From a virus (taxonomy: Duplodnaviria > Heunggongvirae > Uroviricota > Caudoviricetes): a stretch of 64,000 nucleotides of DNA. Under the pieces are notes generated by a model. The model was not told the origin of the DNA and did not search any database. It saw only the letters and a program-made list of their open reading frames with translations. Position 1 is the first letter of the stretch. Every line of letters starts with the position of its first letter. The stretch lies in IMG/VR virus record IMGVR_UViG_3300048058_000019; one strand, written 5' to 3'. This document shows, piece by piece, positions 20,593 to 62,287 of this stretch. A program made the translations under genes and the position numbers.

Positions 20593-20659
20593 GGTTATAG
20601 ATGGGAGGCTGGACGTTCTTACGAGCCGCCCAGCCTCCCGAGCATGGAGGAGAGCGGAT

Positions 20660-21898: not shown

Positions 21899-21900
21899 TA

Positions 21901-22131: not shown

Positions 22132-22148
22132 CTCTCCTCCAATTGCTC

Positions 22149-22661: not shown

Positions 22662-22675
22662 CGGCTCATATTCGT

Positions 22676-24168: not shown

Positions 24169-24268
24169 CTTACCTCTCATTAAACCTCCATGAGACAGTC
24201 GCCACACGCCCCATCCCACCACGCGCCGCGAGGGCGGGCAATCATGGGTTGGCTGCGACGGCCAGATC

Positions 24269-29719: not shown

Positions 29720-30192
29720 TTAACACCCTTCGTCGCGGCCCACTTCCGTATCAGCTTTTGCGTTTTCTTCCGTTCTCTCTTTGCCTTATCGGTTTCAACT
29801 AGTTCCCGCAACTTTTTGTCATAGACATCTTTCTTCTTGAGACTCTTAACAAGCTTGGTGTCAGTCTCGAACAGCGTTCTTAAAAGACCAAGAAGGTCAG
29901 ATGTCGGTTCAGCAATGTTCATGTAATAAACCCATCCATCTTTATTCGTTGACAGGTCTTGCTTGCGCGAGAAGATGACCTCAACCTCATTTTGAACGAA
30001 CACGTGGATTGCAGGGATAAAGTATCCTCCCCGAATCTGGAGATGAGGTTGGATATAAGGTGTCGAACCGCCGTACAAGGACACCTTAAATCCCTCGTTA
30101 ATGAGCCACACCTTTAGTTGGCCTAGCGTGGCAACTTTCTCTTGATGGGTCATTTCGCAAACTGACGCTTGGCCAGCTCCTCCTTGTACCAC
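29716..30192 (-). CDS. hypothetical protein (158 aa)
   Basis: Minus-strand ORF with a 4-nt overlap with the next gene. Confidence 0.5.
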   Translation of the reverse strand: MVQGGAGQASVCEMTHQEKVATLGQLKVWLINEGFKVSLYGGSTPYIQPHLQIRGGYFIPAIHVFVQNEVEVIFSRKQDLSTNKDGWVYYMNIAEPTSDLLGLLRTLFETDTKLVKSLKKKDVYDKKLRELVETDKAKRERKKTQKLIRKWAATKGVK

Positions 30193-31121: not shown

Positions 31122-31464
31122 TCTTTCCCTCACAATCTTTACAGCAGCACTTGATACATACGCATTCGCTACCACCACATGGAGTAGTGCAATGCTTATG
31201 ACTACAACCACATGTCTCGTAATCGGAGAAGGGAAGTATCGACGCTAACTGCTTCCTTTCTCGATCATAGACAACCTTGAGCATCTGCTTTTCATGCTCA
31301 ACCAGGAAGATGGAAACCCGGTGGGAGTCTTTATGGTAGAATCTCGCATCTCCCACACGGATCTTGTCCACGATACGACACTGGTCCTCCTCTCTGAGGA
31401 CCAGCCCAAATCGCTGGAAGGCACGCCGTTGAGCGTGCAACCGCTGAGATTTATCTTTCTTCAT
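31111..31464 (-). CDS. Cys-rich hypothetical protein (117 aa)
   Basis: C-terminus CGCSHKHCTTPCGGSECVCIKCCCKDCEGK. Confidence 0.45.
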   Translation of the reverse strand: MKKDKSQRLHAQRRAFQRFGLVLREEDQCRIVDKIRVGDARFYHKDSHRVSIFLVEHEKQMLKVVYDRERKQLASILPFSDYETCGCSHKHCTTPCGGSECVCIKCCCKDCEGKNGS

Positions 31465-33331: not shown

Positions 33332-33528
33332 TTTACCTCAGGTAAAACCTCAGGACCCCAATCTAGATCATAGTCTAGATTCCAATGCCAATCGGAATAA
33401 TGACCTTGGGGCCGTTGGCACCGGATAGGCTTATTGTCTGGAGTCAATGCAGACCAACAAGCATTTTCACAAAGAACCTCTTTATAGGCAGCATTTGGGG
33501 CGAAGATCTTAAATTTTTCTGAACTCAT
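33328..33528 (-). CDS. small Cys/Trp-rich protein with an N-proximal FKIFAP motif (MSSEKFKIFAPNAAYKE...)
   Basis: Variant of the NFKIxAP motif at residues 6-11. Confidence 0.4.
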   Translation of the reverse strand: MSSEKFKIFAPNAAYKEVLCENACWSALTPDNKPIRCQRPQGHYSDWHWNLDYDLDWGPEVLPEVK

Positions 33529-33839
33529 TCACCCGCCGCTTCTACCGTAGCAGACATAGAACCTGCACAACGTGGGATCCTTGGGTCTCGCCCGTAAGCG
33601 TGGACCTTATCTCTCTTGAATTCAGCATATTCAAGAGCGCCCGAATATACAATCACCTTTCCGGTCGCATCGACCTCAACTGCCATCCTGAATGCCTTCT
33701 CCTTGGAGTGACCGAAGACCACTCCAAGCATTTCGATCACATACTCGTATGTGTGATCATCATCATTCCACAGGATAACGTTGTAAGGAGGCTGTGTCTT
33801 GACATCCTCCTTGACTTCATCTTTTACTTCTGTCGACAT
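33525..33839 (-). CDS. clpS: ClpS-like N-degron adaptor (copy 1)
   Basis: PPYNVILWNDDDHTYEYVIEMLGVVFGHSKEKAFRMAVEVDATGKVIVYSGALEYAEFKRDKV aligns with the E. coli ClpS core [52 protein letters not shown]. Confidence 0.8.
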   Translation of the reverse strand: MSTEVKDEVKEDVKTQPPYNVILWNDDDHTYEYVIEMLGVVFGHSKEKAFRMAVEVDATGKVIVYSGALEYAEFKRDKVHAYGRDPRIPRCAGSMSATVEAAGE

Positions 33840-36848: not shown

Positions 36849-37342
36849 TCATTCCCGCCCAATTCAACTGGCTCCACTTTCATGCCCTTAGGAATCCGAC
36901 TCCGGTAAACGAAATAGATCAACTCGCCATCCTTGATGTGGCGAAAACGCCTCTTAATCCAGTCGGATTCAGGCTTCTTGCGTCTATCGTCAGTCACAAG
37001 CTTCCAGGTTGATTCACCTTCATTACCTATAATAGAAACCCATGCTCTCCTGGTATAAGGGGAGTTGGTCGCCTCAACCAAGGAAGCAATCCTATTTGCC
37101 GGATTTGCGATACCTTTACGGCGAAGAACGATGTAATGTGTCATCACGAGATAAGCATTGTCCTCTTCCAGTTCTCGGGGATGCTCTTTCCACCCGAAGG
37201 AGAGGTGATAATACGCTTGTAGCTTACTCAGCGGATCCTTTGGGAGAGGTTTGAGATGACTCACTACTCCAACTTTTTCGTCCGAGATCAAGCTACAACC
37301 GTCCTTCCATCGGCACCGTCGCGCCACTTGATCTTGATCCAA
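36836..37342 (-). CDS. hypothetical protein (168 aa)
   Basis: Minus-strand ORF. Confidence 0.5.
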   Translation of the reverse strand: MDQDQVARRCRWKDGCSLISDEKVGVVSHLKPLPKDPLSKLQAYYHLSFGWKEHPRELEEDNAYLVMTHYIVLRRKGIANPANRIASLVEATNSPYTRRAWVSIIGNEGESTWKLVTDDRRKKPESDWIKRRFRHIKDGELIYFVYRSRIPKGMKVEPVELGGNEWDR

Positions 37343-37914
37343 TTGGGGTTCTTCTTCGACTCCTTCGTGTCTCCAACCAACTTGCTGAGCTTCCCCTTAA
37401 GGACGATCCCCTCGGTCGTCTTATCCGTCTTCGACCAAGCGAAGAGCTCCGAATAAGGAGTGAGACTCTTCCCATCAGAAACCCACTTGGGAAGCTGAAG
37501 CGGGAAAGCCTCGGGGTCATCGAGTTTCGAGAACACGCCCTCGAAAATCTTAATCACCTTGTCCCAGCGAAAGGCTTCGGGATCTCTTCCCAACCACTCT
37601 CCGTTGAACCAAGGCATCCCGATTACATATAGCAGTTCTGGCCCATCGTAATCAGGGCGACGGCGCATCCACTCAGTATCGAGGACGGTGGCTGGGGGAA
37701 GGTCCAAGAACTTAACGGCCTTCCTCATCTCGTCGGCGACGGGAAGAGGCTTATTAACTCTCGACCAGAATGAGATATCGTCGTTGATGGTCACAGCACA
37801 TCGCCATCCGTCATACTTCGCGGTCGCGATGTAGCCGCCCTGCATATCGAGATCAGGGAGGGATTTAGGGTCCCTACGCCAGGGCTTGTCGGGGAATCTA
37901 CGAAGCAAATTCAT
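37288..37914 (-). CDS. minimal ATP-dependent ligase (nucleotidyltransferase domain only, 208 aa)
   Basis: Motif I ATAKYDGWR; motif III VLDTEWM; motif IV TEGIVLKG; motif V PNWIKIKWR. All of these fall within 208 aa, leaving no room for an OB domain. Confidence 0.6.
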   Translation of the reverse strand: MNLLRRFPDKPWRRDPKSLPDLDMQGGYIATAKYDGWRCAVTINDDISFWSRVNKPLPVADEMRKAVKFLDLPPATVLDTEWMRRRPDYDGPELLYVIGMPWFNGEWLGRDPEAFRWDKVIKIFEGVFSKLDDPEAFPLQLPKWVSDGKSLTPYSELFAWSKTDKTTEGIVLKGKLSKLVGDTKESKKNPNWIKIKWRDGADGRTVVA

Positions 37915-38300
37915 TTTCTCTCCTCCGGGTTACCACAATAAATGCAATGATCTTCATTCTCCTGATGAGCATCGTGATCGGAAGGAATTGTGTAGTGTTT
38001 ACCATCAATTCCTTCAACGTAGTTGTCCTGTCCATCAGAATAAGAATTCTCTGGGCAGGTGCTGTAATAGTGGCAGGCGCTGTCTGGAGACTTCTTGCAA
38101 CGCCAACCAAAGTCCTTACCGCAGCCAACACACCTTGCCCCAACGGACATCCATTCGTCCGCTAGATCCTTTGAAGACAGTGGAGAGAAGGAATGTTTAC
38201 ACTCTTCCGTCAGTTTCAGAATCGCTCTCCTGAGATCAAGACACTTGCTCTCAAGGGAACGAATCAAGGCTCGACGGTCTTTATGCGACAAGTCGTTCAT
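37911..38300 (-). CDS. Cys/His-rich hypothetical protein (129 aa)
   Basis: Contains several CxxC/CxxxxC pairs (CVGCGKDFGWRC, CHYYSTC, CIYCG). Confidence 0.45.
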   Translation of the reverse strand: MNDLSHKDRRALIRSLESKCLDLRRAILKLTEECKHSFSPLSSKDLADEWMSVGARCVGCGKDFGWRCKKSPDSACHYYSTCPENSYSDGQDNYVEGIDGKHYTIPSDHDAHQENEDHCIYCGNPEERK

Positions 38301-39782: not shown

Positions 39783-40244
39783 TCACAGTTTCGATAGAGC
39801 TTTGTCCACATGGCTGCTCAACCACGCTTTATTGAGTGAAGGAATCCGGAAACGTCCCCGTTTATTGAGGGGTCTTAAGTAGAGGATTCTCTTGCCCTCT
39901 TCGGGATGCATCATCTCAATGATGTATTCATGTCCATCGTAAAGAGCAAGTGACGTGTGTCCCTGTTGCTGAACGATGAGAGCTACGTTCTTATTGGGGT
40001 TCGCCAATTCACCGATCTTTAGATTATATTGGTTGTCATCGAATGTGAAGGGAGTCACAGATGCGTAACGACGCTCTGGGATGTTGATGACAAATGCCTC
40101 CTCAGCACAAGTCAACTTCAGACCCGGTGAAGTTTCCATCTTTAGAACCTCTGTCATCATAATGACAGGTTCACCATGTTGGCACTCGCCGGGGAAATTT
40201 GGGTGCATCTTCCGATAGAGACACCCGCAGCTTCTACGCTTCAT
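39783..40244 (-). CDS. hypothetical protein (153 aa)
   Basis: Minus-strand ORF; N-terminal CGCLYRKMHPNFPGECQHG. Confidence 0.45.
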   Translation of the reverse strand: MKRRSCGCLYRKMHPNFPGECQHGEPVIMMTEVLKMETSPGLKLTCAEEAFVINIPERRYASVTPFTFDDNQYNLKIGELANPNKNVALIVQQQGHTSLALYDGHEYIIEMMHPEEGKRILYLRPLNKRGRFRIPSLNKAWLSSHVDKALSKL

Positions 40245-40808: not shown

Positions 40809-41134
40809 AACGGCCCCATTTCTCTTATTCGCTGACCAACAACATGGTCATTGTAGGACCGAAGCATCCTGTAGAACTTCGGGAAGAACTCAGGATCAGC
40901 AGCAGGTAACTCTATTCCCGATTCAGGAAGGTGCATGTGTTCGAGGTTTTTTATCCACCTTACACTAGCGTCCTTAATGAGGAAAACAACGTTAGCAGTT
41001 TGGTGTTTAGGGAGATGATAGAGATATCGATACCCTAAATGCTCCCCCGTATGCCACTGACGAGGACTCGCATGAGCATCGTACTCACTCTGAGCCGCCA
41101 ACCAATCCTTGATGATCCATTGTAGGTGGATCAC
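40805..41134 (-). CDS. hypothetical protein, DPxFF-motif family member (109 aa)
   Basis: Contains LPAADPEFFPKFYRMLRSY. Confidence 0.45.
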   Translation of the reverse strand: MIHLQWIIKDWLAAQSEYDAHASPRQWHTGEHLGYRYLYHLPKHQTANVVFLIKDASVRWIKNLEHMHLPESGIELPAADPEFFPKFYRMLRSYNDHVVGQRIREMGPL

Positions 41135-42510
41135 TTATCACCAAGAACGATATTCAGGATTTCGTAGGGATCCTTTAAACCCTTCTCATACTGAACCTCT
41201 CGGCACTTCTTGATGATGGTACCGAACTCTGGCGAGGGTTTCATATCGCGCTCAAGGAGATGTCTACCCATCACGACATCCTTCTCGGGCCTCTTATCAA
41301 CGGAAATAACCCGAGCCATCCGCATGAACTCGTCGCCATGTTTGAAATCCTTGGCGAGAGCATCCGGTGACGTGCGGCCGAAGTGATCGGCGGACGACAC
41401 TTTGTAAAGCATTTCCATCGTCGTGCCAGCCTCAGCTAAACGCCGGGCGAGCTTACGATAGCCCTTCGGGCCCACATTCGACTTTGGATGGGCGAAGTGT
41501 GCCGGAGCAAGATGGTCCTTGACCAAAGCAGATACCTGCGACACCAGGGCGAGCGGCGCTCGGAGTCGCTCCAAGAAGGCACGCGCAGGTTCCATACCTG
41601 CTTCTTCATGCCCGCGAGCCCTCCACCGACCCTCCTCAAATTGGGTCGTAGCGGCCTTACCGAAATCGTGAGCCAAAGCTCCAAACATCAGCGGGAGGTC
41701 GTGCTCGGGGACTCCCGTCCGCAGTTCAGCGGCGCAGTCGATCACCATCAGAGTATGGATATAGACGTCCCCCTCAGGATGCCAAACGGGATCCTGCTGA
41801 ACATCAACGAGGTTATGGATCTCGGGAGCGATAATCCTATTGGCGTCGATTTCCTGTAAGAAGGCCACTCCTCGCGAGGGCTGAGATCCCTTGAGGAGAA
41901 GCTTGACCCACTCTTCCCAGAGTCGCTCGCCTGGAAGCTCCTTAAGAGCGTCAACAGTCGCTTTACACAAATCCAACGTCTCCGCATCCGGGCGTAGGTG
42001 GAATCGGGCAATAAACTGTGCGGCCCGCAAGATCCGAAGGGGATCCTCAACGAAGGTCTGGGGATCGGTAACACGGATGATCCTCTTACGGAGATCATCC
42101 TGCCCACCGAACGGATCGATGATCTCGCTGGTAAGAGGATCCATCGCGATGGAGTTCATCGTGAAGTCACGCCTACGCGCAGCATCTTTGATGGACATGG
42201 AGGGATCCGGCTTAACCGTGAAACCCTTATGACCAACGCCGATCTTGGAATCACGGCGGGGAACCGAGATATCAAAACCTCCAACCTTTAAGATGCCAAA
42301 AGCCCTACCTACCGCGTGGACGTCCCCAAAACGCTTCAGGGTGGTTTCGAGACGCTCCATAGGGAGCCCATAGACTTCGATATCGACATCCTTAGGAGGT
42401 AAGCCTAGAAGTTGGTCGCGGACATAGCCGCCTACAACAAGAGCTCGACCACCTTGGCGGCGGATCGAATTTGCGATTTCTTTTACTTTGGTGTCCATAT
42501 CTCTCCTCAC
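41131..42510 (-). CDS. cca: CCA-adding tRNA nucleotidyltransferase with HD domain
   Basis: N-terminal Pol-beta NTase head (GGYVRDQLLGLPPKDVDIEV), then an HD domain (HTLMVIDCAA...LAHDFGK). At 459 aa it matches the bacterial class II CCA enzyme architecture. Confidence 0.8.
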   Translation of the reverse strand: MRRDMDTKVKEIANSIRRQGGRALVVGGYVRDQLLGLPPKDVDIEVYGLPMERLETTLKRFGDVHAVGRAFGILKVGGFDISVPRRDSKIGVGHKGFTVKPDPSMSIKDAARRRDFTMNSIAMDPLTSEIIDPFGGQDDLRKRIIRVTDPQTFVEDPLRILRAAQFIARFHLRPDAETLDLCKATVDALKELPGERLWEEWVKLLLKGSQPSRGVAFLQEIDANRIIAPEIHNLVDVQQDPVWHPEGDVYIHTLMVIDCAAELRTGVPEHDLPLMFGALAHDFGKAATTQFEEGRWRARGHEEAGMEPARAFLERLRAPLALVSQVSALVKDHLAPAHFAHPKSNVGPKGYRKLARRLAEAGTTMEMLYKVSSADHFGRTSPDALAKDFKHGDEFMRMARVISVDKRPEKDVVMGRHLLERDMKPSPEFGTIIKKCREVQYEKGLKDPYEILNIVLGDK

Positions 42511-44906: not shown

Positions 44907-44983
<77 letters not shown>

Positions 44984-54948: not shown

Positions 54949-55197
54949 TCAGTATAGATCCTCACTCATGAGGATTGGATGAAGTTTCTGTACTTGACCA
55001 GCTTCAAAAGCAATCTTAGCTGCTTCCGCACGGTCAACGAACTTTCCGCATTCGGTGACAAATCCTTGAGTTCCCCTGACGGGAGCTGCTTTGGGTCCCA
55101 ACTCTTTGACAATCTTCCCGATTACATCGCTGTGTCTTCGACCGGTCCAAACTGATCCTTCATGGAAGATCGCCGCTTCTTTGATTCTTAGTTCCAC
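54949..55197 (-). CDS. hypothetical protein (82 aa)
   Basis: Minus-strand ORF. Confidence 0.4.
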   Translation of the reverse strand: MELRIKEAAIFHEGSVWTGRRHSDVIGKIVKELGPKAAPVRGTQGFVTECGKFVDRAEAAKIAFEAGQVQKLHPILMSEDLY

Positions 55198-56011: not shown

Positions 56012-56695
56012 TTACTTGCCATAGACCTGTACCAAAGCTTTCTTGATGTGGTCACATTGGCCTACGGGCTTCTTCTTCGCGTGGTGAAACCGGAAACCGG
56101 GACAGGTGCACTCAGCGTAGCTCGTATCAAGATCAATTGAAATGTGATAGGGATCCCCTTTAGATCCCAAAATCTCAATTACCTTGGTCGAGGGATCCGA
56201 ATCGTCAGGTATCACGGCCCCCTTCTCACGCTCCTGAGGAGTCTGATACTTCATCCCAAGCGCCTTGAACACGTCCTCTTCCGTGCGCGAGGCGATATTG
56301 TCTTTGTCGCGGAAAACGCCGTACTGGTTTAGGAGCAGATTTCGTCCTCTCGCACGGGCTCTCATCGCGACAGCTAGTTGGTGAGGCCCAGTAGCATAAC
56401 AGAGCATCGCCCCCCAGTGCTCGTCGTCGGTGGTCCAAACCTGGACCTCAATCTCCTTGAAGAGGCCCATCATCCGCTTTTCGCCGCCCGTGAAACCAAG
56501 CTCGCGGAGAGCCTCAAACATCGGGGTGGAGGGGTGAGCCACAACGTCAATGTCCCCGGCCGTCTTCTTACCCCGCCGCAAGCTCCCACAGATCAAGACC
56601 CTGGTGGTGAGGGGAGTTATGATTGCCTCAAGCTCCTCTGCGATGGGTCGGACGACAGAAGAGGGGTGCCGTTTCCTATCCTTTTTGTTTCCCAT
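56012..56695 (-). CDS. minimal family-X DNA polymerase (Pol beta palm plus thumb) with C-terminal SWIM zinc finger
   Basis: ICGSLRRGKKTAGDIDVVAHP matches the Pol beta segment [29 protein letters not shown]...MLCYATGPHQLAVAMRARARGRNLLLNQYGVF...EEDVFKALGMKYQTPQER matches Pol beta [60 protein letters not shown]. C-terminus YAECTCPGFRFHHAKKKPVGQCDHIKKA is CxC-x(n)-CxH (SWIM). Confidence 0.75.
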   Translation of the reverse strand: MGNKKDRKRHPSSVVRPIAEELEAIITPLTTRVLICGSLRRGKKTAGDIDVVAHPSTPMFEALRELGFTGGEKRMMGLFKEIEVQVWTTDDEHWGAMLCYATGPHQLAVAMRARARGRNLLLNQYGVFRDKDNIASRTEEDVFKALGMKYQTPQEREKGAVIPDDSDPSTKVIEILGSKGDPYHISIDLDTSYAECTCPGFRFHHAKKKPVGQCDHIKKALVQVYGK

Positions 56696-56865
56696 CTTGT
56701 CCCTTTACCCGTAATAGACGTGGGTAGTTATCTCTTCCTCCTCGATCTTGCAACGCCGACATTTGCGCCGATGATAGACGTGGGCCCAAGAGATTGCTTT
56801 ATTAACAGTCTCTTTCCACTTGTGTCCGAGCCACCGGCATAGAAAAAGCTTCAGGGTTTTCAACA

Positions 56866-57522
56866 TCAGATGCTTACGACCTCTTCACTCTTCTGGAAGG
56901 AGCGGCGAGGAAGGATCGGGCCGGTGGGCTGGACGCCAAGAGGATTCCTGGTGTACCCCACAAACCATGGAGCGTGCGAGGGCATTGAGAGCCGCATAAA
57001 GCCACGTTCCGTCTGATCCTCCATAGGGAGGGACTCATGGACACAGAGAGGATTCATCCAGTAAGCCGTGTTGGGCTGCAGCGTGGTTGCGCTCTCGGGG
57101 TGCGCTTGGCTGTGTAGGTGCTCACATTCGCCCTCGGATTTCGGCCAGCCATTGAAGGTCTGGTTCCAGGCGCGACAACCTGCGGGATTGGAAACGGTGA
57201 TCATCCCTTTACCTGCCCAAGGTGCCCCACCACCCCAACCGCCAGCGCCGTCTTTGTAAATCCCATCGACATGGAGCCCGGGACGACGAAGACTCTCACC
57301 AGAGCTGAGGTCACGCTCATCAATGGTAAGATACCCAACACCCTTCTTGACGTAACTCATATTGAAGAGTCCCGCCACAGCTCGCTTGTAGCGACTGAGG
57401 GCCGCAGGAAGAGAATTGATATCGTTCATGATGATAGGCATCATCATGATCCGAGTCCCTGAGAAGGGAGGAAGGACGATTCTTCCTACTTCACGGAAAC
57501 GGGAATTGAAACTGGTTCGCAT
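56866..57522 (-). CDS. hypothetical protein (218 aa)
   Basis: Minus-strand ORF; Gly/Trp-rich; no motif assigned. Confidence 0.5.
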   Translation of the reverse strand: MRTSFNSRFREVGRIVLPPFSGTRIMMMPIIMNDINSLPAALSRYKRAVAGLFNMSYVKKGVGYLTIDERDLSSGESLRRPGLHVDGIYKDGAGGWGGGAPWAGKGMITVSNPAGCRAWNQTFNGWPKSEGECEHLHSQAHPESATTLQPNTAYWMNPLCVHESLPMEDQTERGFMRLSMPSHAPWFVGYTRNPLGVQPTGPILPRRSFQKSEEVVSI

Positions 57523-57755
57523 TATAAACCTTTCACCATTTCGGAACCTTCACGCGCGGTCACGATATCAATCAGTTTTTGACGAGACGACAACTGTAAA
57601 CGGATAGGTAGAGTTGCCGTTAACCAAGCCAAAAGGATGTCGGTATCAGCTTTTGGGTTAACGAGCTCGATTATCAGATCCAGTTGGGTGGCTGTAGATG
57701 ATTCTACTAGATTGTAGATATCGTCAATTGCTGTTTGCTTATCCTCAGGACTCAT
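57522..57755 (-). CDS. hypothetical protein (77 aa)
   Basis: Minus-strand ORF. Confidence 0.4.
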   Translation of the reverse strand: MSPEDKQTAIDDIYNLVESSTATQLDLIIELVNPKADTDILLAWLTATLPIRLQLSSRQKLIDIVTAREGSEMVKGL

Positions 57756-57822
57756 CCCTTCACCTCGAACAGATGCCAGATCAACTCTCCCTTTATTGGG
57801 ACCTCGTACTTGAAGACCTTTC

Positions 57823-58005
57823 TCACTTTATCTCCTTCGCAACGACGGAGACTACTTTACCATCAGCCCAGCCCCATTTCCACATCTGTTCTCTGGCCCA
57901 CTCCTTGGCAAGTTCGCCATCAGGAGCGAGTGCTTCGATGTTGATCACAGGCTTGGATTTGGCTTCCTTGAGCTGAAGCATGAACGGAACGCTGCGACGA
58001 GTCAT
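57823..58005 (-). CDS. hypothetical protein (60 aa)
   Basis: Minus-strand ORF. Confidence 0.35.
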   Translation of the reverse strand: MTRRSVPFMLQLKEAKSKPVINIEALAPDGELAKEWAREQMWKWGWADGKVVSVVAKEIK

Positions 58006-58014
58006 GTTTTCTCC

Positions 58015-58239
58015 TTATTTCAGGGAGTCCAGCGCGAGATTGATCATCAGATCATTCTCCTCTGATAATCTCGACGCGAGTTTCTTAACACAGATTTCAC
58101 ATCTCGTTGGTTGAGTAGGGACATTCACCCCGAAACCAAAAGAAGCGAGTTGGTCACAAATGTAACACTTCAGCTCATCGGGGGGACACCAGAAGATCTT
58201 CCACCCCGATGTAAAACTGCCAAGTTCGAGCATCTCCAT
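58015..58239 (-). CDS. small zinc-finger protein (74 aa)
   Basis: CPPDELKCYICDQ...CEICVKK. Confidence 0.4.
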   Translation of the reverse strand: MEMLELGSFTSGWKIFWCPPDELKCYICDQLASFGFGVNVPTQPTRCEICVKKLASRLSEENDLMINLALDSLK

Positions 58240-58386
58240 AACTTAGGGATAGTAAGATCCGCCGTCCATGACGCGGGCAATAGTAAAAAGGGCCCAAGCT
58301 AGAAGAGCGAGCCCGCCTCCGATTGCGAGGCCGAGACAGCCGAGACCAGAAGCGATCTTCCCACCGATATTGTCTGGATCTTCCAT
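58240..58386 (-). CDS. tiny membrane peptide (MEDPDNIGGKIASGLGCLGLAIGGGLALLAWALFTIARVMDGGSYYP, 48 aa)
   Basis: Exactly fills the gap between its neighbours; Gly-rich TM helix. Confidence 0.35.
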
Positions 58387-59439
58387 TTACTTGACAACCT
58401 CTCGGACAGCCCAGCCGATGTTCGGAGACAGTGCGAGCGTCTCGGGGTTCTGAACGACGGAACTGACACCAGCCAGAAGCTCCATGTTATAGATCTGGCC
58501 GTAGTAGTTCCATTCGAACGGGACCTTCGACAGCGAGCTCGGATATTGCCGTTCCGACAGGCCATCTCCATATTCGAGATTGGACAGGCCCATCTTGGGG
58601 TTCTGAATGAGATCGTCGTCTCTTCCCCACTCTTGACGGACGTAAGGGAAGAGTGTATTGATCCAGCCGGAAACTTTTGAAACAGCACCTGATCCACGAC
58701 CGGAGTTTTTCTTATAGAAGGATTCCCACCACTCTCGATCGACCTTGCCCTTGGCTGCCGAGACGAAGCCGTCCAGAACTCGCGTGAGCGGCATCGTCCA
58801 CCAGGAAAGGTCTGCCTCGCCCTTGAACATCCAACCTTCGATCTTGGCGCGGAGCTTTTCCCAGTCCTCGACCTTACCAGTCAGTTCGATATCGGGAATG
58901 CCACACATCGTCATCATTCCGTATTCGAAGTAAGACTGCATGGAGTCCATAAGGACGACCTCAGAAGCGGCTTTCTCGACCACTCCAGTCGTTGAGAAAT
59001 CGGAAACGATCATTTGGTGATTAGCGTTGCCGATGTAACTCTTGATCTTCTCGGAGAATTCCGCAAAAGCGCCTTCCCAGTCGTTGTCCTCGGCACCCTT
59101 GAGGAAGCTGTCTCGGCGAACGATGATCTTGACTTTCCCCTCATGATCAACGAACTGCTTCCGGACGGCTTCTGCATGCCGGTTGATGTGGGTGGCCAGA
59201 CCTTGCGAGAGGGTAATCCAGATCGAATCCGGTGACAGGACGAGCGGATAATGCTCTGCAAACGAGGTTCCAACCGCACCGACCAACTGGTGAGATGGCG
59301 TCCACGCGAGTACTTCACCCTTGGGGACACGCGATACCGCCTCAAGAGGCGAGTGGGCCAGATTTTCGAAATGTTTCTTGTATGCCCCGACTTGAGCGGC
59401 GTGCGTTTTCTTCTCAACTTTCGATAGCGTGAAGTGCAT
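58387..59439 (-). CDS. hypothetical protein (350 aa)
   Basis: Long minus-strand ORF with AAGGAGAAAATTC RBS; no motif recognised. Confidence 0.55.
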   Translation of the reverse strand: MHFTLSKVEKKTHAAQVGAYKKHFENLAHSPLEAVSRVPKGEVLAWTPSHQLVGAVGTSFAEHYPLVLSPDSIWITLSQGLATHINRHAEAVRKQFVDHEGKVKIIVRRDSFLKGAEDNDWEGAFAEFSEKIKSYIGNANHQMIVSDFSTTGVVEKAASEVVLMDSMQSYFEYGMMTMCGIPDIELTGKVEDWEKLRAKIEGWMFKGEADLSWWTMPLTRVLDGFVSAAKGKVDREWWESFYKKNSGRGSGAVSKVSGWINTLFPYVRQEWGRDDDLIQNPKMGLSNLEYGDGLSERQYPSSLSKVPFEWNYYGQIYNMELLAGVSSVVQNPETLALSPNIGWAVREVVK

Positions 59440-59462
59440 GAATTTTCTCCTTAGTTAGAAAA

Positions 59463-59490
59463 GGGGCCGGGAGGAGAGTCTCCCGGCCCC
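59463..59490 (-). terminator. intrinsic terminator
   Basis: ggggccgggag (59463-59473) pairs perfectly with ctcccggcccc (59480-59490) around a 6-nt loop. On the coding (minus) strand it is followed directly by UUUUCU, then by the RBS of the next gene. Confidence 0.6.
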
Positions 59491-59498
59491 TCGGTTAG

Positions 59499-59906
59499 TT
59501 ACGGCTTATCCGGTCCGCGCTGACCCTGACGACCCTTGATTTCGCTATGAGAGGCGTCCTGGCAATTCGAGGCGTGCGTAGCTTTGATGATATTGCGGTT
59601 GGACGAGAAGAAACTCAAACGCCAACCAGCAACCTTCGCGCTGTAAGAGTGACCGACCTTGAGACGGGCATACCTGTCGGACGAATCCCAACTTCCGAAG
59701 AGGAGAGTATCCGCGACTTCGAAGGTCTCGACGTTCGAACCCGACTCGGTAAAAACGAGCCACTTCGAATCTTGACCCTTCGTGAAGCGCTCCTTGTCCG
59801 TGACGGTAAACGTCGCGGAATCCTCGGACCCCAAGTAAGCGACAGGATACACAACGATGAGGCCGATGACAAACAGCGCGACCCCGATGACAGCCAAATT
59901 CTTCAC
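59499..59906 (-). CDS. membrane-anchored hypothetical protein (135 aa)
   Basis: N-terminal TM anchor LAVIGVALFVIGLIVVYPVAYL. Preferred over the plus-strand ORF 59547-59942. Confidence 0.45.
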   Translation of the reverse strand: MKNLAVIGVALFVIGLIVVYPVAYLGSEDSATFTVTDKERFTKGQDSKWLVFTESGSNVETFEVADTLLFGSWDSSDRYARLKVGHSYSAKVAGWRLSFFSSNRNIIKATHASNCQDASHSEIKGRQGQRGPDKP

Positions 59907-59934
59907 AACATCCTCCGTAAAAGAAGTTCAAATA

Positions 59935-60120
59935 CTACTTGAGCCGACCAATATCCAACTTCTGATCAAACGATTTGAGCAGGTTACCATCAACCACGGC
60001 GAAATCCCCAGGATTTGCCGACTTACTGAGACTGAGAAGTTCGTCTCGGGTCATGCGATATAGAACCGGTTCTTCATCCTCCCTTTCACATGAGAAAACA
60101 AGCCAAGTCTTTTTACCCAT
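59935..60120 (-). CDS. hypothetical protein (61 aa)
   Basis: Minus-strand ORF. Confidence 0.35.
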   Translation of the reverse strand: MGKKTWLVFSCEREDEEPVLYRMTRDELLSLSKSANPGDFAVVDGNLLKSFDQKLDIGRLK

Positions 60121-60695
60121 TAGAAACCTTCCCGTTGTCCAACAAGGATCTCATTGACAACGAGCTTCTTGATCGCATCGGTGAAGATCCTGAGACCCAC
60201 CTCACTGTCAATGTGATATGACCTCACATATCCACGCGGTTTGATGTGAACAGCTGTGTCGTGCTTCTTGACGGGTGACCACAACTCATCAGCCTTCACA
60301 AACCGCTTCCCCTGCATGACCGACTCAGGGAGTTGCTTGTTCTTGACGAAGTGCTCGAATTGTTTCTTCTCACTGTGGTGAACAAGAAGGTCGTCCTTCT
60401 CATCGTAGTAATCCGCCCACTCTTCTGGAGGTGGGCACGCACAATGACCAGCAACCCGAATGTCGGTCTTCCCTACTGGGTCCTCATAGAGATCTTGCGC
60501 CACATGGAGCGGTACACGACCTTCGACCACCCAATAATACCAAGCGCGGGTAAATTCGAAATCCCCAAGCTTCCCCATCTTGGTGTAAGGGACCTCACCC
60601 TTGTGAGGAGGGGCGTCAATGACCGGTATTCGGACTCTCTTGAGCTCGTCCAAGATAAACTTATCGGCGTCTTTGTCGCCCGCAAGATTCTTCAT
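60120..60695 (-). CDS. hypothetical protein (191 aa)
   Basis: Minus-strand ORF. Confidence 0.5.
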   Translation of the reverse strand: MKNLAGDKDADKFILDELKRVRIPVIDAPPHKGEVPYTKMGKLGDFEFTRAWYYWVVEGRVPLHVAQDLYEDPVGKTDIRVAGHCACPPPEEWADYYDEKDDLLVHHSEKKQFEHFVKNKQLPESVMQGKRFVKADELWSPVKKHDTAVHIKPRGYVRSYHIDSEVGLRIFTDAIKKLVVNEILVGQREGF

Positions 60696-60901
60696 GGAGT
60701 GAACCTCTTCTTGAATCTGAGTCCGTTAATGAAATCTTCGGCCCTCTGAAGGCGTTCTCGAGAGTCGAGAGTGGACATTGTACTTCCCGTCCAATCGGCC
60801 CTCCGGACGAGCTCCGTTCGGACCTCCTGGATCTCCTTTAAGAGGAGTTCGAGGACGGTGAGGACTGTCCGTTCATAACCGTGTCTTTCCTCTTCGTCCA
60901 T
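60692..60901 (-). CDS. hypothetical protein (69 aa)
   Basis: Minus-strand ORF. Confidence 0.35.
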   Translation of the reverse strand: MDEEERHGYERTVLTVLELLLKEIQEVRTELVRRADWTGSTMSTLDSRERLQRAEDFINGLRFKKRFTP

Positions 60902-61146
60902 TATTCCTTCCCCTTTAATTCCTCAACCCTGCGTTCAAGCCGATAGATGTCGCTTTTCAGAGGAGCGACTACTTTTTTGACTCTGTCCTCGTAAGCGAGC
61001 TCCCAGTGAATACAAGATTCTACCTGGAAACCTATAACGACGACAACAATCAGGATGAAAATAGCCAGCACCTTCTGACCAAGGTTGAGGTCTTCATTAT
61101 CACTCATCTTAACGTTCTTTCGGATTGAACACGCAGTCCTTGGCAT
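60901..61146 (-). CDS. small membrane/coiled-coil protein (81 aa)
   Basis: TM helix VLAIFILIVVVVIGF. Confidence 0.4.
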   Translation of the reverse strand: MPRTACSIRKNVKMSDNEDLNLGQKVLAIFILIVVVVIGFQVESCIHWELAYEDRVKKVVAPLKSDIYRLERRVEELKGKE

Positions 61147-62287
61147 CCTTATCGGTCCGGATTCCCGACCCGGCCTTCATTGCGGGGTGGCGAAGTGCCC
61201 CACTCTTGAATTGGCCGAAGTGAGAGATCGTGATGACCTTACCCTTGTACTGCTCGAAGCTCGAGGCGAACTCCTGACTCCAAGCGCTGGACATCGAGCC
61301 CACGCGGACCAGCGATTTTAGAGTGCCCCCAACGTACTGACCGCAGACGAGGCTCTCAACCATCGGGACGCTTGATTTCGTCTCCGCCGTGGAGAGATTG
61401 ATGTCCATGATCACCATGTCAGCCTCAAAGGACTTCTTGGCCTTCCGCCAGTGTGGTACCTTGAGTCCTTTGCCCTGATACGCGGTGTCTGAACCCTTCG
61501 CCTTCTTCAGTACAAGACCCTCGTGTTCGAGGCTAAGCTGCTTGGCAAAGCCCTTGGTGAAACGAGGAGCGAGCAGGAAGTATTCCTTGAGCTTCCCACT
61601 GAGCGAGGCGTGGAACTTCTCGAGTATCGCGCGCCGATCTGTCTCATCGAGACCGAGCTGAGACTTGTAATCCTGATACAGGATTCCGTACACGTCCATG
61701 AAGTCGTGGCCAATCTTGGCCCGTCGCTCCAAAGCGTGTTCGGACCCAAACCCCAACTCCCCGATTAAAAGGGTCCCGGCGGGGAGCCCCATGTTGTCCA
61801 GGCCGTAGGGTTTCTCATTCCGGTTGCGGGACCAGAAGCGGTTTTTGCCTCCGTCCGAAAACGCGGCAATCCAGATGCCGTCATATTTGGGTTCGGCAAC
61901 GTACTTGCCGCCTTTCTCAACCACCTCGAGCTCGGCCGCAATGGCCTCTGTGTCACCAGGGATTGCGTCCCCGCAACCCTGATAGAACATCTGGGCCTGG
62001 AAGTTGTTCGACACGAACGTTGAGGGATCCACCTCATTTGGGAGCCCAGTGGCAACCTTCACGGATTTTGCTGTGGCGAGCTTGGGGGCGGGAGCCGCAG
62101 GAGCAGCCGGAGCGGGATTGCCGCTGGAAGCTCCATATTGCTTGAGATGGGTGCAAGTCTTGGGAATGAGCCTGCTCATCTTCCATCCTCTGCAATCGCA
62201 GTAAATCATTCCATCCCCGCCCCTCATGACCTTGTATTCCTTGCCGGGGCTGGACTTGGACGGATAGGTCTCAAGTACTTCGGCCAT
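61109..62287 (-). CDS. ATP-dependent DNA ligase with N-terminal SWIM zinc finger
   Basis: Trimmed to the ATG at 62287 (MAEVLETY; GGAGGAAATCTGATG RBS and a TGATG junction). SWIM finger YCDCRGWKMSRLIPKTCTHLKQ, then a PAPAAPAAPAP linker. Ligase motif I EPKYDGIW, motif III LLIGEL, motif IV HEGLVLKKA, motif V PHWRKAK, plus C-terminal sequence in the position of an OB domain. Confidence 0.7.
   Translation of the reverse strand: MAEVLETYPSKSSPGKEYKVMRGGDGMIYCDCRGWKMSRLIPKTCTHLKQYGASSGNPAPAAPAAPAPKLATAKSVKVATGLPNEVDPSTFVSNNFQAQMFYQGCGDAIPGDTEAIAAELEVVEKGGKYVAEPKYDGIWIAAFSDGGKNRFWSRNRNEKPYGLDNMGLPAGTLLIGELGFGSEHALERRAKIGHDFMDVYGILYQDYKSQLGLDETDRRAILEKFHASLSGKLKEYFLLAPRFTKGFAKQLSLEHEGLVLKKAKGSDTAYQGKGLKVPHWRKAKKSFEADMVIMDINLSTAETKSSVPMVESLVCGQYVGGTLKSLVRVGSMSSAWSQEFASSFEQYKGKVITISHFGQFKSGALRHPAMKAGSGIRTDKDAKDCVFNPKER

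What the first reader, a model, noticed from the sequence alone, without database searches (positions are those of the whole stretch)
56012..62287. Phage-encoded mini Pol X and DNA ligase, each fused to a SWIM zinc finger
ORF 56012-56695 (227 aa) carries the Pol beta palm and thumb signature segments almost verbatim, but no 8-kDa lyase or fingers domain. It is minimal, like the ASFV Pol X, and ends in a CxC-x(n)-CxH SWIM finger. ORF 61109-62287 is a complete ATP-dependent ligase (motifs I, III, IV, V plus a C-terminal extension) preceded by a SWIM finger and a Pro/Ala linker. A gap-filling polymerase and a ligase, 4.4 kb apart and both with the same rare accessory finger, look like a dedicated short-patch DNA repair or end-joining pair. 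SWIM may be the shared DNA- or partner-binding handle. Base-excision-like repair modules are well known in ASFV and other eukaryotic viruses but are unusual in phages.
Basis: partly seen in the sequence, partly recalled or inferred. Interest (0 to 1): 0.7.

Follow-up and report, generated by a model that had tools for sequence, protein, structure and literature searches.

The report
SWIM-fingered mini Pol X and ligase
A huge phage encodes a stripped-down repair-type DNA polymerase and a DNA ligase that each carry the same kind of small zinc finger; this is a new packaging of known enzymes, and the polymerase lacks one of its three catalytic acids, so whether it still polymerises is an open question.

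Summary
ORF 56012-56695(-) is a minimal family-X polymerase, palm plus thumb only (T. thermophilus PolX 1e-17; model pLDDT 91), with a C-terminal zinc finger. ORF 61109-62287(-) is an ATP-dependent DNA ligase with an N-terminal finger on a disordered linker. Both fingers are SWIM. The window copies miss Pfam's model, but 27/45 and 17/32 relatives match it, the four Cys/His are the only invariant columns across 40 fingers, and the two finger families match each other (hhalign 97%).

The polymerase's third catalytic Asp is Gln85, and the Pol beta N279 equivalent is Ala108. The ligase family lacks the motif I Arg (KxDGxW).

A polymerase-ligase partnership has support. Five close Pol X relatives are covalent Pol X-ligase fusions. 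One phage has a Pol X / LigD-phosphoesterase / ligase cluster. Neighbouring pairs always lie within 6.5 kb. Against a dedicated pair, five other SWIM-ligase loci have no Pol X within 10 kb, and the window has no Ku, AP endonuclease or phosphoesterase.

Most likely this is a nick/gap-repair pair whose SWIM fingers replace missing DNA-binding domains. It is a new variant of known kinds, of moderate interest.

The parts
56012..56695 (-). Gene for the mini Pol X-SWIM protein (227 aa plus stop)
   Evidence: ORF list. Called identically on six contigs, one of 384,188 bp. Pfam thumb 6.8e-17 and palm 6.9e-6. PDB TthPolX 1.2e-17.
56216..56695 (-). Pol X core, residues 1-160: N-terminal helix, short palm and thumb. 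No 8-kDa or fingers domain.
   Evidence: AF2 pLDDT 91.1. Foldseek 3auo rmsd 2.5 A over 162 columns. Giant-virus Pol X and ASFV O174L in BFVD. G37, S38, R40, R41, D48, T102, G103, R112 and LNQYG are conserved in 150 relatives.
56546..56554 (-). Codons for metal ligands D48-I-D50 (the GDIDVV motif)
   Evidence: D48 in 149 of 149 aligned sequences (one gap); D50 is D in 137 and E in 12.
56441..56449 (-). Codons E83-V84-Q85. Q85 occupies the position of the third catalytic Asp (Pol beta D256, ASFV D100). E83 is a candidate relocated carboxylate.
   Evidence: The phmmer alignment puts TthPolX VDLRVV on query VQVWTT. The column is D71, N40, E28, Q6. Four of 6 Q-class members have D/E at i-2 against 7 of 144 others, Fisher p = 2e-4.
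56015..56194 (-). C-terminal SWIM zinc finger, residues 168-227 (ligands C196, C198, C214, H216 at 56048-56110)
   Evidence: Topology beta-beta-beta-alpha-alpha in the AF2 model. Conserved in 41 of 150 relatives. PF04434 hits 27 of 45 relatives, best 7e-6. Structural matches to annotated SWIM-type fingers of uncultured Caudovirales, e.g. rmsd 1.5 A over 52 columns. The window copy itself is not detected by Pfam.
61109..62287 (-). Gene for the SWIM-ATP-dependent DNA ligase (392 aa plus stop)
   Evidence: ORF list. Gene calls. RBS GGAGGA and TGATG overlap. About 40 full-length homologues at 44-57% identity.
62123..62287 (-). N-terminal SWIM zinc finger, residues 1-55 (ligands C30, C32, C45, H47 at 62147-62200)
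   Evidence: Y-C-x-C-x-G-W...C-x-H-L is conserved in all 24 finger-bearing homologues aligned. PF04434 hits 17 of 32 relatives, best 3.4e-4. hhalign against the Pol X fingers gives probability 97.2%, E 3.7e-11. Same beta-beta-beta-alpha-alpha topology in the AF2 model.
62039..62122 (-). Pro/Ala-rich flexible linker, residues 56-83
   Evidence: pLDDT about 45 with no secondary structure. Length and sequence vary among homologues.
61112..62038 (-). Ligase core, residues 84-392: conserved N-terminal WYQGCG element, nucleotidyltransferase domain (motifs I, III, IIIa, IV, V; adenylation Lys134 at 61886-61888) and OB domain with motif VI
   Evidence: Invariant catalytic residues. PF01068, PF04679 and PF14743 in relatives. 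Foldseek matches archaeal ligases, the LigD ligase domain, Lig1, T4, Lig E and a Rhizobium phage ligase at E 1e-12 to 1e-15. The motif I Arg is replaced by W139; the column is W/F/N in 32 of 32.

Best explanation
Two separately encoded DNA-end enzymes of a huge phage (at least 384 kb) most likely act one after the other at nicks and short gaps in phage DNA.

The first is a minimal family-X polymerase with only a palm and thumb, as in ASFV Pol X. The second is a two-domain ATP-dependent DNA ligase (nucleotidyltransferase plus OB). Both cores lack the DNA-binding domains that larger relatives use: the 8-kDa and HhH fingers in Pol X, and the DBD or zinc finger in cellular ligases. Each has instead acquired a SWIM zinc finger. 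It is C-terminal in the polymerase. In the ligase it is N-terminal, on a flexible linker of about 28 residues. I infer that the finger is an add-on module that binds nucleic acid, or possibly a partner protein, and holds the small catalytic core on the lesion.

Proposed sequence of events: Pol X binds the gap and, if catalytically competent, adds one or a few nucleotides; the ligase adenylates at Lys134 and seals the nick.

Shown: the identity and fold of all four domains, conservation of the zinc ligands and catalytic residues, homology of the two fingers, and recurrent fusion and adjacency of this Pol X clade with ligases.

Inferred: cooperation in this phage, the role of SWIM, and polymerase activity. 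Activity is doubtful because the third metal ligand is Gln85. Glu83, two residues upstream on the same strand face, may substitute for it.
For: Domain identities.

SWIM.

Pol X-ligase coupling:
- Of 10 long relatives among the top 150 Pol X hits, 3 are ATP-ligase + Pol X fusions (P0148, P0162, P0212) and 2 are Pol X + NAD-ligase fusions (P0153, P0201).
- L009 has Pol X / LigD_N 3'-phosphoesterase (7.8e-24) / a homologue of this very ligase family in one tight cluster.
- Further co-directional neighbours: L026 3.8 kb, L039 5.4 kb, L044 2.8 kb, L084 overlapping, L090 0.9 kb, L096 4.1 kb, L072 5.5 kb, L100 6.2 kb. None lies between 6.5 and 10 kb.
- The characterised PgV PolX is a polymerase-lyase-ligase fusion (PMC5537341).

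SWIM as a detachable add-on:
- It sits C-terminal in most Pol X relatives and N-terminal in several (P0072, P0104, P0150, P0183, P0090), and is absent in most.
- It is present in one ligase clade and absent from the sister clade.
- It also occurs as stand-alone proteins of about 80 aa in phage replication modules, and next to an SNF2 helicase in L026.

The enzymes are under selection, not decaying: all dNTP-binding and ligase catalytic residues are conserved.
Against: The Pol X triad is D-D-Q and the N279 equivalent is Ala108. Prokaryotic PolXs with altered triads and a hydrophobic residue at N279 lack polymerase activity (PMC9226535). I found no experimental precedent for an active D-D-Q or D-D-N Pol X; PgV PolX has three Asp.

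The pairing is not conserved. Five other SWIM-ligase loci (L007, L020-L023) have no Pol X within 10 kb, and the 111-kb contig behind L007 gave no Pol X pattern hit. Only about 7 of roughly 50 Pol X loci of at least 10 kb have a ligase within 10 kb, which is close to what one ligase per 100-400 kb genome would give by chance.

Twelve small unrelated ORFs separate the two genes. No AP endonuclease, glycosylase, Ku or phosphoesterase was detected in the window.

The ligase may simply be the phage's replicative ligase (PMC7824862). No data show that SWIM binds DNA. The motif I Arg, which I recall as essential in Chlorella virus ligase, is absent.
Confidence: 0.5

Rival explanations
1. The two genes have independent jobs. 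The SWIM-ligase is the phage's general replicative (Okazaki-fragment) ligase. The mini Pol X is an unrelated accessory gene. Both carry SWIM only because SWIM is a common, promiscuous add-on in phage DNA-metabolism proteins.
For: SWIM-ligases occur in at least 5 other phage contexts with no Pol X within 10 kb. Jumbo phages typically carry one ATP- or NAD-dependent ligase as a sporadic replication component (PMC7824862). Twelve ORFs separate the two genes. The two fingers are only 18% identical and each groups with its own enzyme family. Stand-alone SWIM proteins are frequent in phages. Overall Pol X-ligase co-occurrence within 10 kb is about 14%.
Against: Five covalent Pol X-ligase fusions occur among close relatives. 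L009 has a Pol X / phosphoesterase / ligase cluster that uses a homologue of this ligase family. All neighbouring pairs lie within 6.5 kb and are co-directional, and two are adjacent or overlapping. The window holds a second ligase-like ORF at 37291-37929. The rest of the 384-kb genome was not seen, so this ligase is not shown to be the only one.
Confidence: 0.25
2. The mini Pol X is catalytically dead. It works as a non-enzymatic gap, nick or dNTP-binding subunit, a lesion sensor or scaffold, possibly handing the site to the ligase.
For: The triad is D-D-Q, the N279 equivalent is Ala108, and the spacing from D50 to the third ligand is 35 residues against a family median of 40. These are hallmarks of the inactive noncanonical PolXs (PMC9226535). 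Fifty-one of 150 relatives lack a carboxylate at this position yet keep GS/RR/TG/R112/LNQYG, so nucleotide and DNA binding appears to be what is selected.
Against: Unlike the degraded noncanonical PolXs, every dNTP-binding motif is intact. Four of 6 Q-class members have Asp or Glu at i-2 (query Glu83), the position of Pol beta R254 next to the catalytic metal, which suggests a relocated carboxylate. The protein has no nuclease (PHP) domain that could supply an alternative activity. An Asn or Gln carbonyl can still coordinate a metal (general chemistry, not tested here).
Confidence: 0.15
3. The SWIM fingers are protein-protein handles. They dock both enzymes onto each other or onto a common phage hub (a MoxR AAA+/VWA pair or an SNF2 translocase), giving a non-covalent equivalent of the Pol X-ligase fusion proteins.
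For: In L055-L057 the stand-alone SWIM proteins sit next to a MoxR-type AAA_5 ATPase and a ~491-aa protein (VWA match in L057 only), with a ligase nearby in two of the three. L039 has mini Pol X / AAA_5 / VWA / ligase. L026 has Pol X-SWIM / SWIM / SNF2 / ligase. From memory, eukaryotic SWIM domains in Sws1/Shu2 and MEKK1 mediate protein contacts.
Against: No AAA_5, VWA or SNF2 gene was found in the 64-kb window. No interaction was tested. SWIM-ligases exist without Pol X nearby. The sample of contexts is small.
Confidence: 0.07
4. The pair belongs to the phage's RNA-repair set and acts on RNA rather than DNA.
For: The window carries RlaP, an Rnl-type RNA ligase, a CCA-adding enzyme, a SpoU methylase and a tRNA. 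A CCA-adding enzyme lies 1.3-3 kb from the SWIM-ligase in L020, L021 and L023, with a PNKP in L023. Motif I lacks the Arg typical of DNA ligases. Eight of 32 relatives also touch PF09414 RNA_ligase.
Against: The OB domain with motif VI and the best fold matches are DNA ligases. The Pol X thumb is specific to family-X DNA polymerases. L009 links this ligase family to a DNA-end phosphoesterase and a full Pol X. The RNA-repair genes lie 14-60 kb away in the window.
Confidence: 0.03

Closest known systems
African swine fever virus Pol X (O174L, 174 aa) with the ASFV ligase
   Same: A palm-plus-thumb-only family-X polymerase of about 160-175 residues with no 8-kDa or fingers domain, encoded by a large DNA virus alongside an ATP-dependent ligase (phmmer 3e-8; BFVD hit; the ASFV ligase is among the fold matches).
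   Different: ASFV Pol X has three catalytic Asp (D49, D51, D100) and no zinc finger. The ASFV ligase has its own N-terminal DNA-binding domain, not a SWIM. ASFV also encodes an AP endonuclease, and none was found here. The host is eukaryotic.
Phaeocystis globosa virus PolX (polymerase-lyase-ligase fusion; PMC5537341) and the metagenomic Pol X-ligase fusions P0148, P0162, P0212, P0153, P0201
   Same: They show that Pol X and a DNA ligase work as one unit. Five close relatives of this mini Pol X are fused to ATP- or NAD-dependent ligase domains.
   Different: Here the two enzymes are separate genes 4.4 kb apart, and each carries a SWIM finger. PgV PolX has an 8-kDa lyase domain, three Asp and an NAD-type ligase domain.
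Bacterial LigD (POL-PE-LIG) end-joining enzyme, and the L009 phage cluster Pol X / LigD_N phosphoesterase / ligase
   Same: The logic is polymerase plus end-healing plus ATP-dependent ligase. The LigD ligase domain is a top fold match (6nhx). L009 uses a homologue of this ligase family.
   Different: The polymerase is family X, not an AEP primase-polymerase. No phosphoesterase or Ku was found in the window. The enzymes are not fused.
Noncanonical prokaryotic PolXs (Prostova et al. 2022, PMC9226535)
   Same: An altered catalytic triad, a shortened palm and a non-Asn residue at the Pol beta N279 position.
   Different: Those proteins are about 570 aa with a PHP nuclease domain that supplies their activity, and their dNTP-binding motifs are degraded. 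This protein has no nuclease domain and keeps GS/RR/TG/R112 intact.
SWIM zinc finger family (Pfam PF04434), including SWIM-associated SNF2 ATPases and phage stand-alone SWIM proteins
   Same: The CxCxnCxH signature, the beta-beta-beta-alpha fold, and the association with DNA-metabolism proteins.
   Different: I found no SWIM fused to a Pol X or to a DNA ligase in the searchable literature or in 50,697 GenBank phage records.
Human DNA ligase III N-terminal zinc finger (from memory, not tested)
   Same: An N-terminal zinc finger tethered to a ligase core. It is thought to help find nicks and so compensates for a minimal DNA-binding surface.
   Different: The Lig III finger is PARP-like, not SWIM. 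There is no homology, only an analogy in architecture.

Membership tests
Family X DNA polymerase (Pol beta-like) | Pol beta-type nucleotidyltransferase palm with the G-S...R-R motif and the first two metal-binding carboxylates (DxD) | tested here: met
   CGSLRRGKKTAGDIDVV. G37, S38, R40, R41 and D48 are essentially invariant, and D50 is D or E, in 150 relatives. PF14792 6.9e-6.
Family X DNA polymerase (Pol beta-like) | Third catalytic carboxylate (Pol beta D256, ASFV D100) | tested here: not met
   The position is Gln85 (alignment to TthPolX; column counts D71, N40, E28, Q6). Glu83 at i-2 is a possible substitute.
Family X DNA polymerase (Pol beta-like) | C-terminal nucleotide-selection subdomain (Pfam DNA_pol_B_thumb) with the T-G-S/P, R283 equivalent and LNxYG motifs | tested here: met
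   PF14791 6.8e-17 over residues 98-157. T102, G103, R112 and LNQYG are conserved. The N279 equivalent is Ala108, whereas 119 of 150 relatives have Asn.
Family X DNA polymerase (Pol beta-like) | Overall fold superposes on solved Pol X structures | tested here: met
   Foldseek 3auo E 1.6e-14, rmsd 2.5 A over 162 columns; Pol lambda and Pol beta at E about 1e-12.
Family X DNA polymerase (Pol beta-like) | Templated DNA polymerase (gap-filling) activity | not testable with these tools
   This needs biochemistry. No phage mini Pol X has been characterised; YerA41 DNAP03 gave no protein (PMC9023294).
ATP-dependent DNA ligase | Motif I KxDGxR with the adenylated lysine | tested here: inconclusive
   K134, D136 and G137 are invariant, but the Arg is W139 (W/F/N in 32 of 32 relatives). 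It aligns to the R of archaeal KYDGAR.
ATP-dependent DNA ligase | Motifs III, IIIa, IV and V of the nucleotidyltransferase domain | tested here: met
   LIGELG (E177), DFMDV (D198), EGLVLK (E256, G257, K261) and WRKAKK (K282, K284) are all invariant. PF01068 is above its cut-off.
ATP-dependent DNA ligase | C-terminal OB domain with motif VI | tested here: met
   LRHP...R-x-DK with R366, R377 and D379 invariant. PF04679 in 25 of 32 relatives, best 2.7e-7. The two-domain fold matches DNA ligases.
ATP-dependent DNA ligase | Nick-sealing activity on DNA with ATP | not testable with these tools
   This needs biochemistry.
SWIM zinc finger (PF04434) | CxCxnCxH metal-ligand signature conserved in homologues | tested here: met
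   The four ligands are the only invariant columns across 40 fingers from both families. All 24 ligase fingers and 41 Pol X fingers keep them.
SWIM zinc finger (PF04434) | Match to the curated Pfam model | tested here: inconclusive
   The window copies give no hit even at E up to 10. However, 27 of 45 Pol X relatives (best 7e-6) and 17 of 32 ligase relatives (best 3.4e-4) match. Membership therefore rests on transitive homology.
SWIM zinc finger (PF04434) | Three-stranded sheet followed by a helix, resembling annotated SWIM domains | tested here: met
   Both AF2 models show beta-beta-beta-alpha-alpha. There are local structural matches to UniProt 'SWIM-type' proteins of uncultured Caudovirales, at rmsd 1.5-2.3 A over 52-60 columns.
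SWIM zinc finger (PF04434) | Zinc binding | not testable with these tools
   This needs metal analysis of purified protein.
LigD/Ku-type end-joining system | Ku end-binding protein and/or LigD 3'-phosphoesterase encoded with the ligase | tested here: not met
   The Pfam survey of the window ORFs found neither. phmmer with the L009 phosphoesterase found nothing in the window. Only 64 kb of at least 384 kb was visible.
ASFV-like viral base-excision repair module | AP endonuclease (and glycosylase or lyase) encoded with Pol X and ligase | tested here: not met
   No AP endonuclease or glycosylase family was detected in the window. The protein has no 8-kDa lyase domain. The intervening ORFs gave no PDB sequence hits.

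The most novel reading that the evidence does not exclude
The SWIM fingers are docking handles that assemble the separately encoded mini Pol X and ligase into a non-covalent repair machine. In other phages the same handles would recruit SNF2 or MoxR-VWA partners. The machine would be the split equivalent of the covalent Pol X-ligase fusions. Within it, the D-D-Q Pol X would work either through a relocated catalytic carboxylate (Glu83) or as a non-catalytic gap sensor. Either way, this would define a previously unrecognised class of family-X proteins whose third metal ligand is an amide (about a third of the mini Pol X clade).
Probability: 0.15. Interest if true: 0.7.

Novelty: new variant of a known kind. 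Interest (0 to 1): 0.5.

Why it matters
Family-X polymerases lacking the 8-kDa and fingers domains have been treated as an ASFV oddity; a 2017 paper calls ASFV Pol X 'the only known exception' (PMC5537341). This locus belongs to a large, mostly metagenomic clade of mini Pol X proteins. In the exhaustive search, 997 cluster representatives scored E <= 1e-10, and most of the 150 best are 150-250 aa. This clade repeatedly recruits a SWIM finger or fuses to a ligase, and it tolerates Asp, Glu, Asn or Gln as the third metal ligand while keeping the rest of the active site.

That gives enzymologists a natural series for testing what the third carboxylate really does in two-metal catalysis. It also offers very small polymerase and ligase scaffolds with a detachable zinc-finger DNA handle, which may have biotechnological use.

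For phage biology, the recurrent links of Pol X with ligase, and in one case a 3'-phosphoesterase, suggest that some large phages carry their own nick and gap repair. That is plausible protection against host nucleases or glycosylases, and it is absent from current jumbo-phage surveys (PMC7824862). It would also assign a first concrete role to prokaryotic-virus SWIM domains.

Tried and rejected
- **Direct Pfam detection of SWIM.** The two window fingers gave no hit even at E <= 10. I resolved this by scanning relatives individually and by fold matches.
- **Nucleotide similarity to GenBank phages.** Only one 5%-coverage match, to Virus Rctr197k (one search failed on query length). This phage has no sequenced close relative.
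- **Word-indexed homologue search for Pol X.** It found only 4 proteins. The exhaustive HMMER search was needed.
- **Locus searches.** The search for related loci failed with the 45-sequence Pol X alignment and with A3 on metagenomes. Smaller alignments worked.
- **AlphaFold database fold search.** The library was unavailable.
- **SWIM census by profile.** The search was limited by the word index to 59 candidates, all of them stand-alone mini-proteins. It is therefore not a true census of SWIM fusion partners.
- **Intervening ORFs 56866-57522, 58387-59439 and 60120-60695 as AP endonuclease or Ku.** No PDB sequence hits and no such Pfam families.
- **Recent duplication of the finger between the two genes.** Considered and rejected. 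The fingers are 18% identical and each resembles its own family's fingers (GF versus GW after CxC).
- **Decaying pseudo-enzyme.** Considered and rejected. All other catalytic and dNTP-binding residues are conserved.
- **Longer 444-aa ligase ORF starting at 62443.** Considered and rejected because of the RBS, the gene calls and the N-termini of homologues.
- **PgV PolX as precedent for an active D-D-N enzyme.** Considered and rejected because it has three Asp.

Full report
**Setting.** The window is part of a huge phage. The exact Pol X protein occurs on a JGI metagenome contig of 384,188 bp and another of 124,844 bp. Almost all genes lie on the minus strand in a long co-directional array of small ORFs without known domains. 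The region has no nucleotide-level relative among 50,697 GenBank phage records.

**The observation.** Both ORFs are real and correctly placed.
- ORF 56012-56695(-) encodes 227 aa. ORF 61109-62287(-) encodes 392 aa.
- The ligase start has a GGAGGA ribosome-binding site and its ATG overlaps the upstream stop (TGATG). Homologues begin at the same residue.
- The CxC...CxH signature with its upstream Tyr and following aromatic occurs exactly twice in all six frames, against 0.02 expected. None of 100 shuffles reached two.

**The polymerase.**
- Pfam finds the Pol beta thumb (6.8e-17) and part of the palm (6.9e-6).
- phmmer against the PDB gives T. thermophilus PolX at 1.2e-17 over residues 8-181, and ASFV Pol X at 3e-8.
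- An AlphaFold2 model (pLDDT 91.1) superposes on TthPolX at 2.5 A over 162 columns, and on giant-virus Pol X proteins.
- There is no 8-kDa or helix-hairpin-helix fingers domain. It is an ASFV-style minimal Pol X.
- An exhaustive HMMER search shows that it is one of many. 997 cluster representatives scored E <= 1e-10, and most of the best 150 are 150-250 aa.

**An unexpected active site.** In the alignment to TthPolX, and by spacing to ASFV D100, the third catalytic Asp corresponds to Gln85.
- Among the query and 149 relatives, D48 is invariant and D50 is D or E.
- The third position is D in 71, N in 40, E in 28 and Q in 6.
- The Pol beta N279 equivalent is Asn in 119 of 150 but Ala108 here.
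- Prostova et al. (PMC9226535) define prokaryotic PolXs with non-acidic triad residues, short palms and a hydrophobic residue at N279 as noncanonical, and showed that representatives lack polymerase activity. By that definition this protein is noncanonical.
- Unlike those degraded enzymes, it and its relatives keep every dNTP-binding element: G-S, R-R, T-G, R112 and LNQYG. They also have no PHP nuclease domain to fall back on.
- In the Q class, 4 of 6 members, including the query and its nearest relative P0065 (both 'IEVQVW'), have Asp or Glu two residues upstream on the same strand face. Only 7 of 144 others do (Fisher p = 2e-4). This suggests, but does not prove, a relocated carboxylate.
- I found no experimental precedent. 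PgV PolX has three Asp, and the only phage Pol X that anyone attempted, YerA41 DNAP03, could not be expressed.

**The ligase.**
- PF01068 is just above its cut-off, and PHROG 114 (ATP-dependent DNA ligase) scores 1.7e-21.
- Sixty homologues were found. About 40 are full length at 44-57% identity, and a sister set of 290-330 aa lacks the N-terminal finger.
- K134, E177, D198, E256, G257, K261, K282, K284, R366, R377 and D379 are invariant. Together these cover motifs I, III, IIIa, IV, V and VI.
- The model (pLDDT 88.7) shows an N-terminal finger (residues 1-55), a disordered Pro/Ala linker (56-83, pLDDT about 45) and a two-domain core. The best structural matches to the core are all ATP-dependent DNA ligases: archaeal ligases, the LigD ligase domain, Lig1, T4, Lig E and a Rhizobium phage ligase.
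- One family-wide deviation stands out. Motif I is KxDG[IWN][WFN], and the canonical Arg is absent in 32 of 32 sequences.
- The protein has no tblastn match in GenBank phages.

**The fingers are SWIM.**
- The window copies are too divergent for the Pfam model. When relatives are scanned one by one, PF04434 matches 27 of 45 Pol X relatives (best 7e-6) and 17 of 32 ligase relatives (best 3.4e-4).
- Profiles of the two finger families match each other at 97.2% probability, E 3.7e-11.
- In a joint alignment of 40 fingers, the only invariant columns are the four predicted metal ligands.
- Both models give the same beta-beta-beta-alpha-alpha topology. The Pol X tail superposes on UniProt-annotated SWIM-type fingers of uncultured Caudovirales at 1.5-2.3 A.
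- The finger behaves as a mobile add-on. It is C-terminal in most finger-bearing Pol X relatives and N-terminal in several. Overall it is present in 41 of 150. It is present in one ligase clade only.
- It is also common as a stand-alone protein of about 80 aa.
- The two window fingers are only 18% identical, and each resembles its own family's fingers, so they are not a recent shared acquisition.

**Do the two enzymes work together?**

Evidence for:
- Of ten long proteins among the closest Pol X relatives, three are ATP-ligase + Pol X fusions and two are Pol X + NAD-ligase (+BRCT) fusions. This echoes the characterised PgV polymerase-lyase-ligase (PMC5537341).
- In phage contig L009, a fuller Pol X, a LigD-type 3'-phosphoesterase (7.8e-24) and a finger-less member of this same ligase family form one tight cluster.
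- Across IMG/VR and metagenome loci I found further co-directional Pol X-ligase neighbours at 0, 0.9, 2.8, 3.8, 4.1, 5.4, 5.5 and 6.2 kb. None lies between 6.5 and 10 kb.

Evidence against:
- The five other SWIM-ligase loci have no Pol X within 10 kb.
- Only about 14% of Pol X loci of at least 10 kb have a ligase in range, which is not clearly above chance.
- Twelve unrelated small ORFs separate the genes here.
- No Ku, phosphoesterase, AP endonuclease or glycosylase was detected in the window.
- Jumbo phages commonly carry a single ligase for replication (PMC7824862).

**Mechanism.** My best reading (confidence 0.5) is a nick and short-gap repair pair.
- The mini Pol X binds the gap and, if competent, adds one or a few nucleotides. 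The ligase then seals the nick.
- The SWIM fingers compensate for the DNA-binding domains that both minimal cores lack. On the ligase, the finger is tethered by a flexible linker, much as the unrelated zinc finger of ligase III is (analogy from memory).
- Domain identities and conservation are shown. Cooperation, the role of SWIM and polymerase activity are inferred.
- The rivals are independent functions with a replicative ligase (0.25), a catalytically dead Pol X acting as a sensor or scaffold (0.15), SWIM as a protein-docking handle (0.07) and an RNA-repair role (0.03).

**Comparison and novelty.**
- Each part is a member or near-member of a known family. The combinations are new to the literature I could search, to the 224-genome jumbo-phage survey and to GenBank phages. 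These combinations are SWIM with a mini Pol X, SWIM with an ATP-dependent ligase, and both in one genome.
- Only 8 of 50,697 GenBank phage records have a related mini Pol X, and none of those matches covers the finger.
- I therefore rate it a new variant of a known kind, with interest 0.5. A specialist would find it worthwhile, particularly for the natural D/E/N/Q series at the third metal ligand, but it does not overturn anything.

Noticed in passing
window 56866-57522 (-): This 218-aa ORF lies just upstream of Pol X. It matches phrog_8970 (1e-37, unknown function) and carries an H-x-D...H...R pattern (LHVDG ... CVHES ... RGFMRLS) that recalls 2-oxoglutarate/Fe(II) dioxygenases. It has no Pfam or PDB sequence hit.
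   Followed up: partly
window 58387-59439 (-): A 350-aa DUF4419 protein (6.8e-73) lies between the two genes. It has no PDB sequence relative. Its function is unknown, and a blastn match to Virus Rctr197k falls in this gene.
   Followed up: partly
window 1709-2494, 12289-12828, 30150-31211, 41131-42510, 44907-44983 (all -): An RNA-repair and tRNA gene set: RlaP nucleotidyltransferase, SpoU methylase, Rnl-type RNA ligase, CCA-adding enzyme with an HD domain, and a tRNA-Met. This matches the jumbo-phage RNA-repair theme of PMC7824862. A CCA-adding enzyme also lies 1.3-3 kb from the SWIM-ligase in L020, L021 and L023, with a PNKP in L023.
   Followed up: partly
window 37291-37929 (-); L020 19662-20315; L021 20054-20662: A second, small ligase-like ORF of about 200 aa. 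It gives only a partial PF01068 match (2.5e-5) and no OB domain was detected. It is conserved about 10 kb from the SWIM-ligase in two related phages.
   Followed up: partly
window 14532-15119 and 14179-14586 (-): A stand-alone WGR-domain protein (7.3e-10) sits next to a DUF6197 protein (1.6e-14). WGR is the DNA-break-sensing domain of PARPs (from memory), so this could be another DNA-damage-related gene.
   Followed up: no
window 33525-33839, 27201-27713, 7576-8874, 54949-55197 (-): A ClpS adaptor (5.9e-20), a RelA/SpoT-type HD_4 hydrolase (6.6e-15), a DFP-like flavoprotein domain (3.2e-9) and a T4_Y16D family protein. These look like host-manipulation genes typical of huge phages.
   Followed up: no
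Mini Pol X clade (P0065-P0212), column of window codon 56441-56443: Across the 150 closest mini Pol X proteins the third metal ligand is D 47%, N 27%, E 19% and Q 4%, while the rest of the active site is conserved. The two NAD-ligase fusions are D-D-N. This is an unexplained, family-wide relaxation of a residue regarded as essential.
   Followed up: partly
Ligase family (alignment A1), window codon 61871-61873: The canonical Arg of motif I (KxDGxR) is W, F or N in all 32 family members, with or without the finger.
   Followed up: partly
L009 1565-3709: Phage contig IMGVR_UViG_3300017991_000187 has a tight cluster of Pol X (HhH + palm + thumb, three Asp), a LigD_N 3'-phosphoesterase and a ligase. 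This is a LigD-like polymerase / end-healing / ligase set built with a family-X polymerase.
   Followed up: yes
L055 1839-6240; L056 3569-7732; L057 533-6255; L039 9917-16816; L022 1-2381: A recurring phage neighbourhood: a MoxR-type AAA_5 ATPase and an adjacent large protein next to a stand-alone SWIM mini-protein or a mini Pol X. The large protein is ~491 aa in L055-L057 (VWA match only in L057) and 713 aa with VWA/CobT_C in L039. A small ATP-dependent ligase lies within a few kb in L039, L056 and L057, but not in L055. L022 has DUF2201 (VWA-like) upstream of a SWIM-ligase. From memory, this resembles E. coli yehLMPQ (MoxR / VWA / SWIM).
   Followed up: partly
L026 4921-10286: A Pol X-SWIM gene, then a small SWIM ORF directly ahead of an SNF2 helicase (the classic SWIM-SNF2 pairing), then an ATP-dependent ligase, all co-directional.
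   Followed up: partly
GenBank phages YerA41 (MW570730 99619-100056), vB_Yru_GN1, Cobetia phage Carin-5 (PV155638 98388-98795): Three of the eight sequenced phages with a related mini Pol X come from the YerA41/Carin-5 group, whose DNA carries hypermodified thymidine. A link between base hypermodification and a need for gap repair is possible but untested.
   Followed up: no
window 40176-40229 (-), in ORF 39783-40244: A third CxC...CxH match (CGCLYRKMHPNFPGECQH) lies at the very N-terminus of a 153-aa ORF. It lacks the upstream strands and Tyr of a SWIM finger and is probably a chance match or a different metal site.
   Followed up: no
window 20001-24000: GC content rises to 0.53-0.57 against about 0.47-0.50 elsewhere. 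This coincides with long plus-strand ORFs (20483-21727, 22790-24193) in an otherwise minus-strand array. Their low-complexity translations suggest spurious antisense ORFs over an unusual minus-strand gene. I did not examine this.
   Followed up: no
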